Sequence record: MT813197 | Source: Escherichia phage vB_EcoP_Kapi1 | DNA length: 39,436 nt | Reading direction: 5' to 3' (one strand) | Shown: positions 5,185 to 9,388 of the stretch, one piece after another | Position numbering within the stretch: position 1 is the stretch's first letter | How the letters are laid out: every line of letters starts with the position of its first letter | Made by a program: the position numbers and the translations under genes | The notes under the pieces: generated by a model | Seen by the model: the letters and a program-made list of their open reading frames with translations, nothing else | The model's database searches: none | What the model was told of the DNA's origin: nothing

Positions 5185-5620
5185 CTTTCTCCTGTTCTTT
5201 GTGCTGATTGAGCATTTTGTTCATCTGACGAATGAATTCTTCGTCTGACCAGTTATCTGTAAAACTCATTTCCTGCGATACCATGGAAGGTTGATAGCTG
5301 ATTTCATCGCTTTATTTGCTTCAAGCCACATTTTTGAATCACCAATAAATCGGGCTATTACTGCTTTGTTTTGTGCAGCACGAAGCATCTGGTGATTAAT
5401 GGCTATTTCATTGCGCATAACGCCTCCAGTTGTTTCTTTGCTGCTCTGATTAATTGTTTAACTCGGCGTGATAATTCAGATTCGTGCGGGTAGAAAGCGG
5501 ACATGACGCCGCTACCCGCGAGCTGAAAGTGCATCATGGGTAACTCCTTATATTTGATTGCATAACGAAAATGCCTCTCGTGAAGCATTATTGGTATGCG
5601 GTAAAGCCGCGCTCAGGCGG

Positions 5621-5869
5621 CTACTCTATTTCTTCTTCGAATGATTTTATTAGTCGGTCAATAACATCATCCGTTTCAATATCATTTCCGTCTGATTGCT
5701 TTAATACATCTATTGATTCTGCAGCGGTAAATTCCATCGCTGTGAGAAACTCGACAATTGCACACTCAACGACATATCGTTCTTCATCTGTACGACATGA
5801 GATAAAAGAGCATTTAATTGCTGTTATTACTTTTTGTTTAAGCTCTGCAGGGTAATCAGTTTTTATCAT
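5621..5869 (-). CDS. Hypothetical small acidic protein (82 aa, about 20 D/E)
   Basis: Strongly acidic composition, C-terminus SFEEEIE. Confidence 0.5.
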   Translation of the reverse strand: MIKTDYPAELKQKVITAIKCSFISCRTDEERYVVECAIVEFLTAMEFTAAESIDVLKQSDGNDIETDDVIDRLIKSFEEEIE

Positions 5870-6043
5870 CGTTCACTCCGTCAAAAAAATTTCCCTCACA
5901 TTGGAGGGCAAAGAAGATTTCCAATAATCAGAACAAGTCGGCTCCTGTTTAGTTACGAGCGACATTGCTCCGTGTATTCACTCGTTGGAATGAATACACA
6001 GTGCAGTGTTTATTCTGTTGTTTATGCCAAAAATAAAGGACGA

Positions 6044-6667
6044 TTATGCGACCTCGGAAGGAAGTCCAATCATCTTATTCAAATCTTCTACCCGTAAAGC
6101 AGGAAGTGCTGTACTTGCTTTATCTGCTTCTTTTGGTAGCAACTCTTTGCTTTCAGGCCAAACTTCAATAAGTCGCTTAACTGTTGTGACTGAGTTCAAA
6201 GCAGCCCATACATTTGATTCGATATCCTTTTTCTTGGCTTCAAGTTTTTGTTGCAATGCGCAGATTTCATCAAACCTTTTTGTTATTTCGTGTTCTGCGC
6301 TAAACATGCATTTATCTTTGGTCGGAGTAGGGAGCAATATATCTTCGCCGTTGCCGTCTTTCCCATATGAATACCAGCCAACCCTTCTGCCAGATACAGT
6401 CAGATAAATTGAAGTTGAACGGGCATCGCATGAGTAAAATGAACATCCCAGCTTTTCAAGTTCTTCGCTTATAGCCATTAACTTGGATGATAACTGATCC
6501 ACTTCCTCAGTTTTCTTTTTACCGCCAAACACAACAACTCTGGCGTCAAGTGCAAGCTGGTTCTTTAACTTTGTTACTTCTTCAAGCTCAGTGAAAACCC
6601 CAGATTTAATTAAAGCGTTACGAGCGATTTTCTCTTTCATACTCGTTGTTAAGCGGATTGATGACAT
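6044..6667 (-). CDS. Hypothetical protein (207 aa)
   Basis: ORF 6044..6727; start moved to in-frame ATG at 6665-6667, which has a GAGAGG RBS. Confidence 0.5.
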   Translation of the reverse strand: MSSIRLTTSMKEKIARNALIKSGVFTELEEVTKLKNQLALDARVVVFGGKKKTEEVDQLSSKLMAISEELEKLGCSFYSCDARSTSIYLTVSGRRVGWYSYGKDGNGEDILLPTPTKDKCMFSAEHEITKRFDEICALQQKLEAKKKDIESNVWAALNSVTTVKRLIEVWPESKELLPKEADKASTALPALRVEDLNKMIGLPSEVA

Positions 6668-6780
6668 ATTAATTCCTCTCAAATAAGTGGTTTGCTGCCT
6701 AATTTCATTTTCTGGCGACCAACACAAGTCACGCCCATTTCACTGCGTGGTTTGCTGTAGTAAATTCGGTTAGTTCAGAC

Positions 6781-6804
6781 AATAAAAAACCCACCGAAGT
6801 GGGC
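6781..6804 (-). terminator. Rho-independent terminator (minus strand), tL-like
   Basis: Hairpin CCCAC-CGAA-GTGGG followed on minus strand by TTTTTTATT, directly after stop of the ORF at 6804..7148. Confidence 0.55.
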
Positions 6805-7148
6805 TATGACCATTTTTTATTTGGATTTCGTTGGTGAGCGTGGTTAACAACCCTGTGCATTACATCCTCATATTTTTCATCTTCAATTTTTTCAACATCG
6901 CGAGGAAATGGTGTTGCTAATGCTTTGTCAACTTTGTCCATTGGGTCTTCATTAATCTTATATTCAGGACCGTCATCTATAGCATTAAAGCCAGGTGTTA
7001 CACCGTTTTTTAATGCATATGCTATCCTCTTTTCCCATCTCGCTATTCTCCTCCTGTCTCGAGATGTAAGACCTCTATCAGATACTTTTCTATTTTGTCC
7101 GTGGTCGGGATTAACATAAATAGTCTTTTTCACCATAAGCATACTCAA
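6804..7148 (-). CDS. Hypothetical protein (114 aa) immediately downstream of N
   Basis: ORF overlaps N stop by 4 nt. Confidence 0.5.
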   Translation of the reverse strand: MSMLMVKKTIYVNPDHGQNRKVSDRGLTSRDRRRIARWEKRIAYALKNGVTPGFNAIDDGPEYKINEDPMDKVDKALATPFPRDVEKIEDEKYEDVMHRVVNHAHQRNPNKKWS

Positions 7149-7450
7149 TAAGCACCGTACGGTGGTTTACTGTACAATTTTATTTTTTGGACTGCATGTA
7201 TTTTGTTTCCTAATGGGTTTGAATCCTTGTAATAAATACTTCTATTTTTTCGAACGACTTCTTCTTTCTTCTTGCAGCAAAGGCTTCCTAGTGATGCTGC
7301 TTTGTCTGCTCTGACGCAACCAGAGAGCTTTAGCGCAATTTTTCGCGCCAGTGCTTCATTACTGCGTCGCTCGGCAATAAGTTCTGCTCTGCGAGCTTTG
7401 TAGCGGCTTTTTGCCGTACCTTTGGATTCTTTCCAGACAATGGTTACCAT
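7145..7450 (-). CDS. N: Antitermination protein N (phage 21-type arginine-rich motif)
   Basis: GTAKSRYKARRAELIAERR matches the phi21 N ARM peptide as I recall it; first gene after pL; start placed at MVTIVWK. Confidence 0.8.
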   Translation of the reverse strand: MVTIVWKESKGTAKSRYKARRAELIAERRSNEALARKIALKLSGCVRADKAASLGSLCCKKKEEVVRKNRSIYYKDSNPLGNKIHAVQKIKLYSKPPYGAY

Positions 7451-7560
7451 GATGGTCTCCTTTAAGTGGCTTTGGCGCATGACGCGTCGAGGTGCTTATC
7501 TTCTCGATCGCTGTCTTGCAGCTGCAATTCGCGCCATCCCCAAAACCACTCAAGTTCTGG

Positions 7561-7600
7561 TCTCAACGGTTAGGTTGAGAGTCCGTCGATGTTAAAGAGC
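7561..7600 (-). promoter_or_regulatory. nutL (boxA GCTCTTTAA at 7592-7600; boxB hairpin UCUCAACCUAACCGUUGAGA at 7561-7580)
   Basis: boxA-like and palindromic boxB between pL and N on the minus strand. Confidence 0.6.
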
Positions 7601-7647
7601 CTGCCAATCTGTTCCGTTTGGCTTCCAGCGTCCTGCTGATGGCTTAA

Positions 7648-7701
7648 ATTTAAGACTTCTTAATTTATTGGTCAAGTGCATTTTTGAAGAAAACTTAATT
7701 T
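7648..7701 (-). promoter_or_regulatory. OL/pL region with P22-type operator sites (AnTnAAGnnnnCTTnAnT)
   Basis: Two 18-bp sites matching the operator pattern, at 7648-7665 and 7684-7701. Confidence 0.5.
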
Positions 7702-7740
7702 TATGGGCGTGAATTTAGTTTGTCTTTGATTTTTAACGGG

Positions 7741-7764
7741 AAATAAAAAAGGGGCGAAAGCCCC
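7741..7764 (-). terminator. Rho-independent terminator after repressor gene
   Basis: Hairpin GGGGC-GAAA-GCCCC abutting c2 stop, followed on minus strand by TTTTTTATTT. Confidence 0.6.
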
Positions 7765-8415
7765 TTAAGGAAGGTTTGCTAGCTTGGCATCAACGACAAC
7801 GCCAATGATTTTACAGTTCCCATTGATTTCAATCATTGGGTATTGTGGATTGAGTGGTTTCAGGAATTTTCTACCGGCATCAATAACTAACTTTTTGAAT
7901 GTCGCCTCGTTTTCTCCTTCAAGTTTGGCGACTACCAGCTTTCCATTACGTGGTTCGACTTCTGGGTCGACGAGAATAATCATCCCCTCAGGAATACTCA
8001 GTCCTGCCGGGGCAGTCATTGAGTCGCCTTTAACATCGAGCCAAAAAGAGTCTTCAGAACAATCTACCGTTGTGTCGTACCAGTTATCTATTGCACGCCT
8101 ATGATATGGCTCTACAGCTTCCATCCAACATCCTGCGCTTACCCAACTAATTAGAGGATACGAACCTCTTGGATCATGCCTGCTGTGATAGGCAATGTTT
8201 GAAAGACTATCCTCTCCTTTCAACAGGTAATCAGGGGAGCACTGCAAAGCCTTGGCTAAGGCCAATAGGTTTTCGCCATTGGGCTCAGTTTCAGATCGCT
8301 CCCATTGGGAAATAGCAACATTAGACACGCCAACCATCTTGCCAAGGGCAGCCTGCCTAATCTTGAGTTCTTTTCTGCGAGCGCGAATACGCTCACCCAT
8401 CAGTTGTGTATTCAT
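7765..8415 (-). CDS. c2: CI-type repressor (P22 c2-like), HTH plus LexA-type autopeptidase domain
   Basis: 216 aa, MNTQLMGERIRARRKELKIRQAALGKMVGVSNVAISQWE...; near-identical to my recollection of P22 C2. Confidence 0.9.
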   Translation of the reverse strand: MNTQLMGERIRARRKELKIRQAALGKMVGVSNVAISQWERSETEPNGENLLALAKALQCSPDYLLKGEDSLSNIAYHSRHDPRGSYPLISWVSAGCWMEAVEPYHRRAIDNWYDTTVDCSEDSFWLDVKGDSMTAPAGLSIPEGMIILVDPEVEPRNGKLVVAKLEGENEATFKKLVIDAGRKFLKPLNPQYPMIEINGNCKIIGVVVDAKLANLP

Positions 8416-8495
8416 AGTTAAGACATCTTAAATAAACTTGACTTAAGATTCCTTTGGTGGATAATTTAAGTGTTCTTTAATTTCGGAGCGAGTCT
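8416..8495. promoter_or_regulatory. OR operator region with divergent PRM/PR promoters (three P22-type operator sites)
   Basis: Sites AGTTAAGACATCTTAAAT, ACTTAAGATTCCTTTGGT, ATTTAAGTGTTCTTTAAT; TTGACT -35 and GATAAT -10 for PR. Confidence 0.65.
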
Positions 8496-8681
8496 ATGTA
8501 CAAAAAAGATGTTATTGACCACTTCGGAACCCAGCGTGCTGTTGCTAAAGCACTAGGCATTAGCGATGCAGCAGTCTCTCAGTGGAAAGAAGTTATCCCA
8601 GAGAAAGACGCCTATCGATTGGAAATCGTTACAGCTGGCGCCCTGAAGTATCAAGAAAGTGCTTACCGCCAAGCGGCATAA
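8496..8681 (+). CDS. cro: Cro repressor (P22-type)
   Basis: 61 aa, MYKKDVIDHFGTQRAVAKALGISDAAVSQWKE. Confidence 0.9.
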   Translation: MYKKDVIDHFGTQRAVAKALGISDAAVSQWKEVIPEKDAYRLEIVTAGALKYQESAYRQAA

Positions 8682-8687
8682 GCAAAT

Positions 8688-8729
8688 TGCTCTTTAACAG
8701 TTCTGGCCTTTCACCTCTAACCGGGTGAG
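8688..8729 (+). promoter_or_regulatory. nutR (boxA TGCTCTTTAA at 8688-8697; boxB UUCACCUCUAACCGGGUGAG at 8710-8729)
   Basis: boxA/boxB just downstream of cro; boxB matches the phi21-type sequence as recalled. Confidence 0.6.
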
Positions 8730-8796
8730 CAAACATCAGCGGCAAATCCATTGGGTGTGCCGCTATAACTCAATATCAATATAGGAAAATTAACAA

Positions 8797-9093
8797 ATGG
8801 CACAAGCAAGCTACAGCAAGCCAACACAGCGAGAAATTGATCGCGCTGAAACTGATTTACTCATCAACCTGTCAACGCTTACCCAGCGCGGTCTGGCAAA
8901 GATGATTGGCTGTCATGAATCGAAGATAAGCAGAACGGACTGGAGATTTATTGCTTCGGTCTTGTGTGCTTTCGGAATGGCATCAGACATCAGTCCGATT
9001 AGCAGGGCTTTTAAGTATGCGCTTGATGGACTCACCAATAAAAAACGCCCGGCGGCAACCGAGCGTTCTGAACAAATCCAGATGGAATTTTAA
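8797..9093 (+). CDS. cII: CII-like transcriptional activator
   Basis: C-terminus TNKKRPAATERSEQIQMEF matches lambda CII tail as recalled. Confidence 0.75.
   Translation: MAQASYSKPTQREIDRAETDLLINLSTLTQRGLAKMIGCHESKISRTDWRFIASVLCAFGMASDISPISRAFKYALDGLTNKKRPAATERSEQIQMEF
8807..8820 (-). promoter_or_regulatory. Candidate pRE -35 with CII-binding TTGC-N6-TTGC repeat
   Basis: Minus strand reads TTGCTGTAGCTTGC inside the 5' end of the cII-like gene, oriented toward cro/c2. Confidence 0.45.
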
Positions 9094-9115
9094 CAACATC
9101 CAACGAGGTAATTAT

Positions 9116-9388
9116 ATGCGAAACAAAGGCTTTAATCCACCTGATACACACAAAGAAGCTAAGCGTTTGCGCTTCCTTCGTTCCATTGATGAAAGAACTC
9201 AAATCTCTTTTGTGAAAGTTGCCAGAACTGAGCTTCTGAAGGCTGAGGCGAGGGCGTTGCTCCCGTCTCTACCAAAAGAGGATGGATATACGTTCATTCC
9301 AAACGCATTTCTGGAAAAGCTGCTCAAAGAAGACATATCCGTAAGTCAGTTTAACGATGTTCTTAAGGTCTTTCGTCAAGGCAGGTAG
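9116..9388 (+). CDS. Hypothetical protein (90 aa) between cII and replication gene
   Basis: ATG at 9116 with GAGG RBS; the reported ORF 8951..9388 starts inside cII in another frame. Confidence 0.5.
   Translation: MRNKGFNPPDTHKEAKRLRFLRSIDERTQISFVKVARTELLKAEARALLPSLPKEDGYTFIPNAFLEKLLKEDISVSQFNDVLKVFRQGR

What the first reader, a model, noticed from the sequence alone, without database searches (positions are those of the whole stretch)
6044..7148. Two unknown genes directly downstream of N, where ral, sieB and kil-type functions usually sit
The first two genes after N (6804-7148, 114 aa, and 6044-6667, 207 aa) have no recognisable similarity to Ral, SieB, Kil, Gam or Abc proteins. An intrinsic terminator (6781-6804) sits between them, implying N-dependent read-through into the second gene. 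The position suggests host-interference or exclusion roles.
Basis: inference. Interest (0 to 1): 0.45.

Follow-up and report, generated by a model that had tools for sequence, protein, structure and literature searches.

The report
Known nun gene plus Nmad5 gene
The two "unknown" genes after N are the well-studied HK022 Nun protein, which lets a prophage block infection by lambda-like phages, and a member of the widespread Nmad5 phage family, whose job nobody has yet shown; the locus is ordinary and already in the databases.

Summary
Both ORFs and the terminator between them are real. They are not unknown.

**ORF 6804-7148 is nun.** It matches the HK022 transcription-arrest and exclusion factor Nun at 108 of 109 residues (PDB 6ALG). 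The boxB-binding arginine-rich motif and the RNA-polymerase-arresting C-terminus are both identical.

**nun arrived as an inserted cassette.** It lies in a roughly 501-bp, low-GC cassette (7263-6763) that carries its own terminator. The cassette is inserted in the 3' end of a phage-21-type N gene. An 84-nt relic of the original N end remains at 6762-6679.

**The phage does not target itself.** Its own N motif and nut sites are phage-21 type, and the window has no lambda-type boxB.

**ORF 6044-6667 is a full-length Pfam Nmad5 protein (PF18757).**
- It is the commonest first gene after N in related E. coli prophages.
- The predicted fold is mostly helical, with no solved relative and no catalytic signature.
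- Its function is unknown. My best guess is a non-enzymatic early accessory factor of phage DNA metabolism or host-defence interplay.

**The arrangement is already sequenced.** The same N-nun-Nmad5 order is annotated in phage mEp235, and the window is 100% identical to a prophage of E. coli MP1.

Interest is low.

The parts
7647..7675 (-). pL promoter-like site (TTGACC-17-TAAATT), context for the operon
   Evidence: Promoter scan. It is collinear with the annotated pL/OL1 region of phage 21.
7561..7601 (-). nutL: boxA (GGCTCTTTAAC, 7601-7591) and phage-21-type boxB hairpin (TCTCAACCTAACCGTTGAGA, 7580-7561)
   Evidence: The sequence is identical to the annotated boxA-L and nutL stem-loop of phage 21. 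No lambda-type boxB occurs in the window at up to 2 mismatches.
7145..7450 (-). N antiterminator, 101 aa, chimeric: 7450-7264 is phage-21 type, 7263-7145 is the N-like 5' part of the nun cassette
   Evidence: phrog_271 at E = 3.7e-32. The arginine-rich motif is 22/22 identical to the phage 21 N peptide in PDB 1NYB. The 5' part is 98.4% identical to phage 21 N, and the 3' part is 96.9% identical to the HK022 DNA upstream of nun.
6763..7263 (-). nun cassette (moron), about 501 bp: N-like leader, nun, terminator
   Evidence: Alignments with HK022, phage 21 and phiv205-1. Phage 21 and phiv205-1 have an uninterrupted N, the empty site. GC content is 36.7%, against 47.1% for the window and 48.7% for the N 5' part.
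7134..7263 (-). Block upstream of nun that in HK022 carries the constitutive prophage promoters of nun; here it also encodes the last 39 residues of N
   Evidence: 125/129 nt identical to HK022. The promoter assignment rests on my memory of King, Madsen and Weisberg 2000; that paper is not held. The consensus scan found no site here, so this is inferred.
6804..7133 (-). nun, transcription-arrest / lambda-exclusion factor, 109 aa from the GTG start (alternative starts at 7136, 7142 and 7148)
   Evidence: 108/109 identical to PDB 6ALG chain N, with S11H the only change. Residues 19-44 are 26/26 identical to the boxB-binding peptide in 1HJI. phrog_5632. 95.7% nucleotide identity to HK022 nun.
6779..6805 (-). 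Intrinsic terminator of the nun cassette; the stem overlaps the nun stop codon
   Evidence: Terminator scan, RNA fold, and conservation with a compensatory change against HK022.
6679..6762 (-). Relic of the original 3' end of the phage-21-type N gene (YYSKPRSEMGVTCVGRQKMKLGSKPLI*)
   Evidence: Translation. 78/81 nt identical to the phage 21 N 3' end. A reconstructed N is 92.9% identical over 100% of phage 21 N. RefSeq annotates it as a pseudogene, 'regulator, missing N-terminus', in E. coli MP1.
6044..6667 (-). Nmad5-family protein (PF18757), 207 aa, function unknown; Shine-Dalgarno GAGG at 6678-6675
   Evidence: Pfam E = 1.3e-70. phrog_1965 at E = 2.9e-81. 2265 representative clusters in the family. 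AlphaFold model pLDDT 84. No solved structural relative.

Best explanation
The region holds two independent accessory modules in the leftward early (pL) operon of a P22-like E. coli prophage that uses phage-21-type N/nut antitermination.

(1) nun. A roughly 501-bp low-GC cassette carrying nun is inserted in the 3' end of N.
- In the lysogen, nun is probably transcribed from its own promoters just upstream. This is inferred from HK022.
- Those transcripts stop at the cassette's terminator, so the lytic genes downstream (Nmad5, kil and others) stay silent.
- Nun binds the lambda-type boxB hairpin in the nascent early transcripts of a superinfecting lambda-like phage through its arginine-rich motif. 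Its C-terminal segment then wedges into RNA polymerase and blocks translocation, aborting that phage's early transcription.
- The resident phage is spared because its own boxB hairpins and its N arginine-rich motif are phage-21 type.

(2) Nmad5. After induction or infection, polymerase modified by N at nutL reads through the nun terminator into Nmad5.
- Nmad5 is an early, probably dispensable protein of about 200 aa with a helical fold that has no solved relative.
- I commit, at about one chance in three, to this role: a non-enzymatic accessory factor that docks through its conserved C-terminal module (T-x-K-[KR]-L-x3-W-P-E ... L-N-x2-I-G-L-P) onto a DNA-transaction or host-defence component, and so favours phage DNA replication. 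I do not think it is a base-modifying enzyme.

Shown: the identity of both genes, the insertion anatomy, the nut and N specificity type, and the terminator.
Inferred: promoter use, read-through, self-immunity, and every functional statement about Nmad5.
For: **nun identity.** 108/109 identical to PDB 6ALG_N, and the boxB-binding peptide of 1HJI is matched 26/26. All C-terminal residues named as determinants in the cryo-EM paper (H93, R94, N97, H98, H100, R102, K106, K107, W108; PMC5386594) are present.

**Cassette and insertion.** Alignments and identities are. Phage 21 and phiv205-1 provide the empty site. The N relic is shown. GC is 36.7%.

**Self-sparing.** The N arginine-rich motif is 22/22 identical to the phage 21 N peptide 1NYB. 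nutL and nutR are phage-21 type. No lambda boxB occurs. In 80 related loci, nun and lambda boxB never co-occur: 7 have nun, 22 have lambda boxB, 0 have both.

**Same gene order elsewhere.** It is annotated in the viable phage mEp235. The window is 100% identical to a prophage of E. coli MP1.

**Nmad5.**
- Full-length PF18757.
- Always found as a stand-alone protein of about 200 aa.
- In close relatives it most often starts 11 nt after the stop of N genes of several specificities.
- In lytic phages it lies in replication or nucleotide-metabolism modules: next to family-A DNA polymerase, in the thymidine-hypermodification cluster of YuA/SN1, and beside 2-aminoadenine-pathway genes.
- In Aeromonas-type prophages it sits before DNA methyltransferases in the early-left operon.
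- In a Dhillonvirus, nmad5 can be deleted, is toxic to clone, and a Lys-to-Glu change gives escape from the Tmn defence (PMC11846954). If SMA8's protein aligns like the equal-length (254-aa) homologue of phage Bas85, which is the sequence actually aligned, that residue corresponds to R165 in the conserved T-x-K-[KR]-L motif.
Against: No expression or phenotype data exist for this prophage. The nun promoters were not detected by the consensus scan, and here they lie inside the N coding sequence, so prophage expression of nun is not certain.

Whether Nun fails to act on phage-21 nut sites rests on my recollection of the older genetic literature (Robert et al. 1987), not on a test here.

For Nmad5 the contexts are heterogeneous. 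Some copies lie in head or portal modules, which does not fit a simple DNA-metabolism role. The recurring link to base-modification clusters could mean a catalytic or substrate-channelling role that sequence and fold analysis cannot see. The Tmn data come from a distant homologue (34% identity over half the protein) and are themselves ambiguous, because deletion does not give escape.
Confidence: 0.75

Rival explanations
1. One reading: both genes are new, uncharacterised host-interference or exclusion genes occupying the ral/sieB/kil slot.
For: Neither protein resembles Ral, SieB, Kil, Gam or Abc. The slot after N is variable: ral in phage 21, a 147-aa unknown in phiv205-1, and Nmad5 in HK542.
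Against: Gene 1 is Nun at 108/109 identity, a characterised protein. Gene 2 belongs to a named Pfam family. The same order is annotated in mEp235.
Confidence: 0.05
2. Nmad5 is what its name suggests: an enzyme or obligatory subunit of a DNA base-modification pathway, here modifying phage DNA to evade restriction.
For: It is embedded in the thymidine-hypermodification cassette of YuA/M6/SN1-type phages. It lies beside 2-aminoadenine-pathway genes and next to DNA methyltransferases in Aeromonas-type prophages.
Against: There is no catalytic-looking conserved residue set. The fold is helical with no enzyme relative. It is always stand-alone. In this window and in HK542 and mEp235 it sits with no modification enzyme beside it. 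It is dispensable in a Dhillonvirus.
Confidence: 0.12
3. Nmad5 is a dedicated anti-defence protein, an inhibitor of a host immune system, analogous in role though not in sequence to Ral in the same slot.
For: It takes the first position after N, where lambda and phage 21 carry ral. It is non-essential and toxic on cloning, and a point mutation in its conserved motif gives a gain-of-function escape from Tmn while deletion does not (residue mapping inferred). It co-occurs with anti-restriction-type functions such as methylases and base modification.
Against: There is no PADLOC or anti-defence family hit. It is not acidic like DNA mimics, with pI about 7.6. Tight, sometimes overlapping linkage to DNA polymerase in lytic phages points to replication. 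No target is known.
Confidence: 0.25
4. nun in this arrangement is only a lytic-cycle passenger, transcribed from pL with N and silent in the lysogen, so it gives no exclusion.
For: No consensus promoter was found in the 130 nt upstream. That block is now coding sequence for N. A strong terminator follows cI (7766-7749), so read-through from the repressor transcript is unlikely.
Against: The upstream block is 96.9% identical to HK022's, where constitutive prophage promoters were mapped (King et al. 2000, from memory). nun keeps its own terminator. The protein is under strong conservation in 29 phage records.
Confidence: 0.1

Closest known systems
Nun of coliphage HK022 (transcription arrest / lambda exclusion factor; PDB 6ALG, 1HJI)
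   Same: The protein is 108/109 identical, including the boxB-binding arginine-rich motif and the C-terminal arrest segment. The 130-nt upstream block and a homologous terminator are shared. It sits just downstream of the repressor and pL region.
   Different: HK022 has no N gene and uses put RNA; nun is there the first gene after pL. Here nun follows a complete phage-21-type N, and its leader supplies the N C-terminus. One substitution, S11H, lies outside the known functional segments.
Phage mEp235 (JQ182731 / NC_019708) early-left region; also mEpX1
   Same: 97.7% nucleotide identity over 5900-7750, with the same annotated order: N, Nun-like factor, 207-aa hypothetical protein.
   Different: The genes further downstream differ: the Erf/Abc2 module in mEp235 against the RecT module here. 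mEpX1 has N-nun but no Nmad5.
Pfam PF18757 Nmad5 / PHROG 1965 (for example HK542 gp33, YuA gp15, Dhillonvirus Nmad5)
   Same: Full-length match to the family profile. 93.7% identical to HK542 gp33, which also directly follows N.
   Different: The only member with genetic data is the Dhillonvirus one. It is longer, lies in the head module, and shares only 34% identity over the C-terminal half. No member has a demonstrated biochemical function.
Morons of lambdoid phages (promoter-gene-terminator insertions, as defined for HK97/HK022 by Juhala et al. 2000; from my own knowledge)
   Same: The nun cassette is absent from otherwise near-identical N genes. It has its own terminator and lower GC, and it is a lysogen-benefit gene.
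   Different: It is not inserted between genes. It lies inside the 3' end of N and replaces the N C-terminus with a diverged homologous one.

Membership tests
HK022 Nun transcription-arrest factor | N-terminal arginine-rich motif that binds lambda boxB RNA (residues about 19-44) | tested here: met
   26/26 identical to the Nun peptide of PDB 1HJI.
HK022 Nun transcription-arrest factor | C-terminal segment 87-109 with H93, H98, H100, R102, K106, K107 and W108, which enters RNA polymerase | tested here: met
   Identical to 6ALG chain N over this segment. The residue list comes from PMC5386594.
HK022 Nun transcription-arrest factor | Own promoter upstream and terminator downstream, allowing expression from the repressed prophage | tested here: inconclusive
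   The terminator is present and conserved. The upstream block is 96.9% identical to HK022, but no promoter was detected by the scan and the mapping paper is not held.
HK022 Nun transcription-arrest factor | Excludes phages with lambda-type nut sites but not the carrier phage | not testable with these tools
   Indirect only: the carrier has phage-21-type nut and N, and no lambda boxB.
Pfam Nmad5 (PF18757) | Score above the curated threshold over the whole domain | tested here: met
   238.1 bits against a cut-off of 27; profile positions 1-206 of 206.
Pfam Nmad5 (PF18757) | Conserved C-terminal signature shared by family members (T-x-K-x-L-x3-W-P-E-x2-E-L-L-P ... L-N-x2-I-G-L-P) | tested here: met
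   T162, L166, W170, P171, E172, L176, P178, L196, N197, G201 and L202 are at least 90% conserved in 142 diverse members and are present here.
Pfam Nmad5 (PF18757) | Genomic association with nucleotide or DNA modification genes (the origin of the name) | tested here: not met
   No modification gene adjoins it in the window, mEp235 or HK542. The association is seen in other members. This is a contextual feature, not a sequence criterion.
Ral / SieB / Kil / Gam / Abc (usual occupants of the post-N region) | Sequence or profile similarity to any of these families | tested here: not met
   No hits in Pfam, PHROGs, NCBIfam or PADLOC. hhalign of the Nmad5 profile against phage 21 Ral gave probability 0.1%. 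kil and cIII lie further downstream.
Lambdoid moron (inserted promoter-gene-terminator cassette) | Absent from an otherwise collinear relative (empty site), own terminator, deviant base composition | tested here: met
   Uninterrupted N in phage 21 and phiv205-1. Terminator. GC of 36.7% against 47.1%.

The most novel reading that the evidence does not exclude
Nmad5 is not a nucleotide-modifying enzyme. It is a new class of early phage effector with a previously unseen fold. It is the default first gene after N in E. coli lambdoid prophages, whatever the N specificity. Through its conserved C-terminal module it engages a host DNA-transaction or immune component; for example, Tmn-type KAP NTPases may sense it or be antagonised by it.
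Probability: 0.3. Interest if true: 0.5.

Novelty: already known. Interest (0 to 1): 0.2.

Why it matters
The practical value is a corrected annotation. RefSeq labels this nun copy 'hypothetical protein'. In fact it predicts that E. coli MP1-type lysogens resist lambda-type phages.

The anatomy also says something about history:
- nun travels as a small cassette that can sit inside the end of an N gene.
- The DNA upstream of nun in HK022 looks like a relic of such an N gene. This hints that the N-less HK022 descends from a phage that carried both N and nun.

The one open question is what Nmad5 does. The family is large (2265 representative clusters at 50% identity), early-expressed, and has no solved structural relative. 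Lambdoid phages such as HK542 or mEp235 would be convenient genetic systems for studying it.

Tried and rejected
**For Nmad5:**
- NCBIfam and PADLOC gave no family hit.
- phmmer and a 142-sequence profile against all PDB sequences found only low-complexity, coiled-coil noise.
- Foldseek against viral models found only other Nmad5 proteins.
- The AlphaFold-database library was unavailable.
- A search for domain fusions found none; all hits are stand-alone.
- hhalign tested whether other occupants of the post-N slot are remote homologues: phage 21 Ral, the phiv205-1 147-aa protein and the PA28 156-aa protein. All were negative.
- The DNA-mimic idea is rejected, since pI is about 7.6.

**For the region as a whole:**
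- The Rfam scan of 5500-9200 found nothing relevant.
- The paper that maps the nun promoters is not held, so promoter coordinates could not be transferred.
- The viral-contig scan returned only close relatives (at least 92% identity). It served as a survey of the upstream neighbour, not as a broad context survey.
- A DefensePredictor paper mentions an 'NMAD' domain in a validated defence system but does not say which Nmad family. I did not use it.

Full report
**What is in the sequence.**
On the minus strand the window carries a lambdoid immunity and early-left region:
- a P22 c2-like repressor gene at 7765-8415, with a terminator right after it
- a pL-like promoter at 7675-7647
- a nut site
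- an N gene at 7450-7145
- a hairpin plus U-run terminator at 6805-6779
- an ORF whose ATG at 6667 gives a 207-aa protein ending at 6044

The terminator is a 7-bp stem with a UUCG loop followed by UUUUUUAUU, at -11 kcal/mol.

**Gene 1 is nun.**
Pfam has no model for it. PHROGs places it in phrog_5632, 'Nun-like transcription termination factor', at E = 2.4e-70. Against the PDB it matches chain N of 6ALG, HK022 Nun in an arrested E. coli elongation complex, at 108 of 109 positions. It matches the boxB-binding peptide of 1HJI at 26 of 26.

The only change is S11H, upstream of the arginine-rich motif. The C-terminal residues that the cryo-EM paper lists as contacts or as sites of known loss-of-function mutations (H93, R94, N97, H98, H100, R102, K106, K107, W108; PMC5386594) are all present.

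By homology the start is the GTG at 7133, not the TTG at 7148. Nun is known only for excluding lambda. nun mutants of HK022 grow and lysogenise normally (PMC4124055).

**How nun sits here.**
HK022 has no N gene; nun is there the first gene after pL. Here nun follows N. Alignments with HK022, phage 21 and phiv205-1 and the identities show a clean mosaic:

| Window segment | What it matches | Identity |
|---|---|---|
| 7450-7264 | Phage 21 N, 5' part | 98.4% |
| 7263-7134 | HK022 DNA just upstream of nun | 96.9% |
| nun coding sequence (7133-6804) | HK022 nun | 95.7% |
| 6762-6682 (after the terminator) | Phage 21 N, 3' end | 96.3% |

- The last segment translates as YYSKPRSEMGVTCVGRQKMKLGSKPLI*.
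- An N protein rebuilt by joining the two phage-21-like parts is 92.9% identical over its whole length to N of phage 21 and of phiv205-1, where the gene is uninterrupted.
- RefSeq independently calls the relic a pseudogene, 'regulator, missing N-terminus', in E. coli MP1.
- So a cassette of about 501 bp (7263-6763) is inserted in the 3' end of a phage-21-type N. Its GC is 36.7%, against 47.1% for the window.
- The first 120 nt or so of the cassette are themselves a diverged N 3' end, and they now supply the C-terminal 39 residues of N.
- The viable phages mEp235 and mEpX1 have the same chimeric N, so it presumably works.

**Why the phage is not hurt by its own Nun.**
The N arginine-rich motif is 22/22 identical to the phage 21 N peptide of PDB 1NYB. 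nutL is identical to the annotated nutL of phage 21, and nutR has the phage 21 boxB. No lambda-type boxB exists in the window even with two mismatches.

That Nun acts on lambda nut sites and not on those of phage 21 is established genetics as I recall it (Robert et al. 1987). I did not test it.

In 80 related IMG/VR loci, 22 carry a lambda boxB and 7 carry nun, and none carries both. This is consistent but weak: the chance of zero overlap is about 0.09, and the loci are related to one another.

**Role of the terminator.**
From memory of King, Madsen and Weisberg (2000; not held), HK022 nun is transcribed in the repressed prophage from promoters just upstream of the coding sequence, and those transcripts end at the terminator after nun.

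The homologous block and terminator are conserved here. The terminator carries a compensatory G:C to A:U change relative to HK022.

The likely logic has two parts:
- In the lysogen, nun transcripts stop at 6779-6805, and Nmad5, kil and the genes beyond stay off.
- After induction, polymerase modified by N at nutL reads through.

It is also a side-effect of the cassette. In most relatives Nmad5 starts 11 nt after the N stop codon with no terminator.

**Gene 2 is an Nmad5-family protein.**

*Family membership.*
- Pfam PF18757 matches end to end: E = 1.3e-70, 238 bits against a cut-off of 27.
- PHROG 1965 matches at E = 2.9e-81, 'unknown function'.
- NCBI names the homologues 'Nmad5 family putative nucleotide modification protein'.
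- The family is large, with 2265 representative clusters at E <= 0.001.
- Its members are always stand-alone proteins of about 200 aa.

*Position in close relatives.*
Among 80 close relatives in viral contigs, the gene most often directly follows N genes of several specificities (lambda, P22-type, phage-21-like and others). Only 7 have nun in between.

*Predicted structure.*
- The AlphaFold model has pLDDT 84. It shows three long N-terminal helices, a beta-hairpin, a long helix and a small C-terminal helical module.
- A 142-sequence profile finds no solved relative.
- Viral model hits are only other Nmad5 proteins.

*Conserved residues.*
- Conservation is concentrated in T162-x-K-[KR]-L-x3-W-P-E-x2-E-L-L-P ... 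L-N-x2-I-G-L-P.
- There is no conserved His, Cys or Asp set of the kind expected for an enzyme.
- The pI is about 7.6, so it is not a DNA mimic.

**What the contexts say.**
- In lytic phages Nmad5 lies in replication or nucleotide-metabolism modules:
  - overlapping the start of a family-A DNA polymerase gene in Acinetobacter phage Scuro
  - near the polymerase and ThyX in Salmonella phage SP-058
  - next to the polymerase in metagenomic phages
  - inside the thymidine-hypermodification cluster of YuA/SN1
  - beside PurZ-type 2-aminoadenine genes
- In Aeromonas-type prophages it sits in the early-left operon, before DNA methyltransferases.
- It also occurs as an oppositely oriented insert in the Dhillonvirus head module and next to portal genes.

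The only genetics is from a Dhillonvirus (PMC11846954):
- The gene can be deleted and is toxic to clone.
- A Lys-to-Glu change (K216E / K296E) lets the phage escape the Tmn defence, whereas deletion does not.
- I aligned the 254-aa homologue from phage Bas85, not SMA8's own protein. On that alignment, position 216 falls on the basic residue of the conserved T-x-K-[KR]-L motif, which is R165 here.
- That paper calls Nmad5 'a DNA modification enzyme', but this comes from the family name and not from an assay.

**Best reading and rivals for Nmad5.**
I favour a non-enzymatic early accessory factor that docks on a DNA-transaction or defence component, at about one chance in three. The rivals are a dedicated anti-defence inhibitor (about one in four) and a true modification enzyme or subunit (about one in eight). 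The rest is unknown. None of the other post-N slot occupants is a remote homologue.

**Comparison with what is known, and novelty.**
- The whole stretch 5900-7750 is 97.7% identical to phage mEp235, where N, 'transcription termination factor Nun' and a hypothetical protein are annotated in this order.
- Region 6044-7460 is 100% identical to prophages of E. coli MP1 and LI60C3. Fourteen of 5426 complete E. coli genomes carry the whole arrangement.
- Both genes and their arrangement are therefore already in the databases.
- The only points I have not seen described are the insertion anatomy and the inference that the nun leader in HK022 is an N relic. They are modest.

**Verdict.**
The finding is real as anatomy but ordinary: a known gene that went unrecognised, plus a member of a known family of unknown function.

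Noticed in passing
window 7145-7450 and 6679-6762: The N gene is a chimera: a phage 21-type 5' part joined to an HK022-type 3' part. An 84-nt relic of the original phage-21-type N 3' end survives between the nun terminator and Nmad5. RefSeq calls it a pseudogene in E. coli MP1.
   Followed up: yes
L004 (HK022) about 2372-2510: The DNA upstream of nun in HK022 keeps an open N-like reading frame (EVVRKNRSIYCKDSNPLGNKIHAVQKIKLYSKLPYGAYWVCLW*). This suggests the N-less, put-dependent HK022 descends from a phage that had both N and nun.
   Followed up: partly
window 5890-6035: The DNA just downstream of Nmad5 is collinear with HK022 DNA downstream of nun, where HK022 is interrupted by IS903. It contains an inverted repeat and a terminator-like site at 5908-5893. 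Relative to HK022, the N relic plus Nmad5 is an extra module.
   Followed up: partly
window 5621-5869 (-): An 82-aa ORF matches phrog_14587, annotated 'anti-restriction protein', at E = 2.2e-48. kil (5266-5418) and a cIII-like ORF follow it.
   Followed up: no
L003 (Stx1 phage PA28) 3560-3860; Stx1a-converting phages: These phages carry N plus a nun copy that is 91.7% identical. The nun terminator stem is degenerate, and nun is annotated only as a 45-aa fragment. nun may be decaying or mis-annotated there.
   Followed up: no
whole window: The window is a P22-like (Lederbergvirus-type) prophage. It is 96-97% identical in blocks to CUS-3 and phiv205-1. Over the tested 6044-7460 it is 100% identical to a prophage of the mouse commensal E. 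coli MP1.
   Followed up: partly
L015 6663-7609 and L016 6660-7615: In Aeromonas-type prophages, Nmad5 overlaps the end of a DUF4406 gene by 4 nt and is followed by DNA methyltransferases (MT-A70, Dam, C5). This may be a conserved DUF4406-Nmad5 pair.
   Followed up: no
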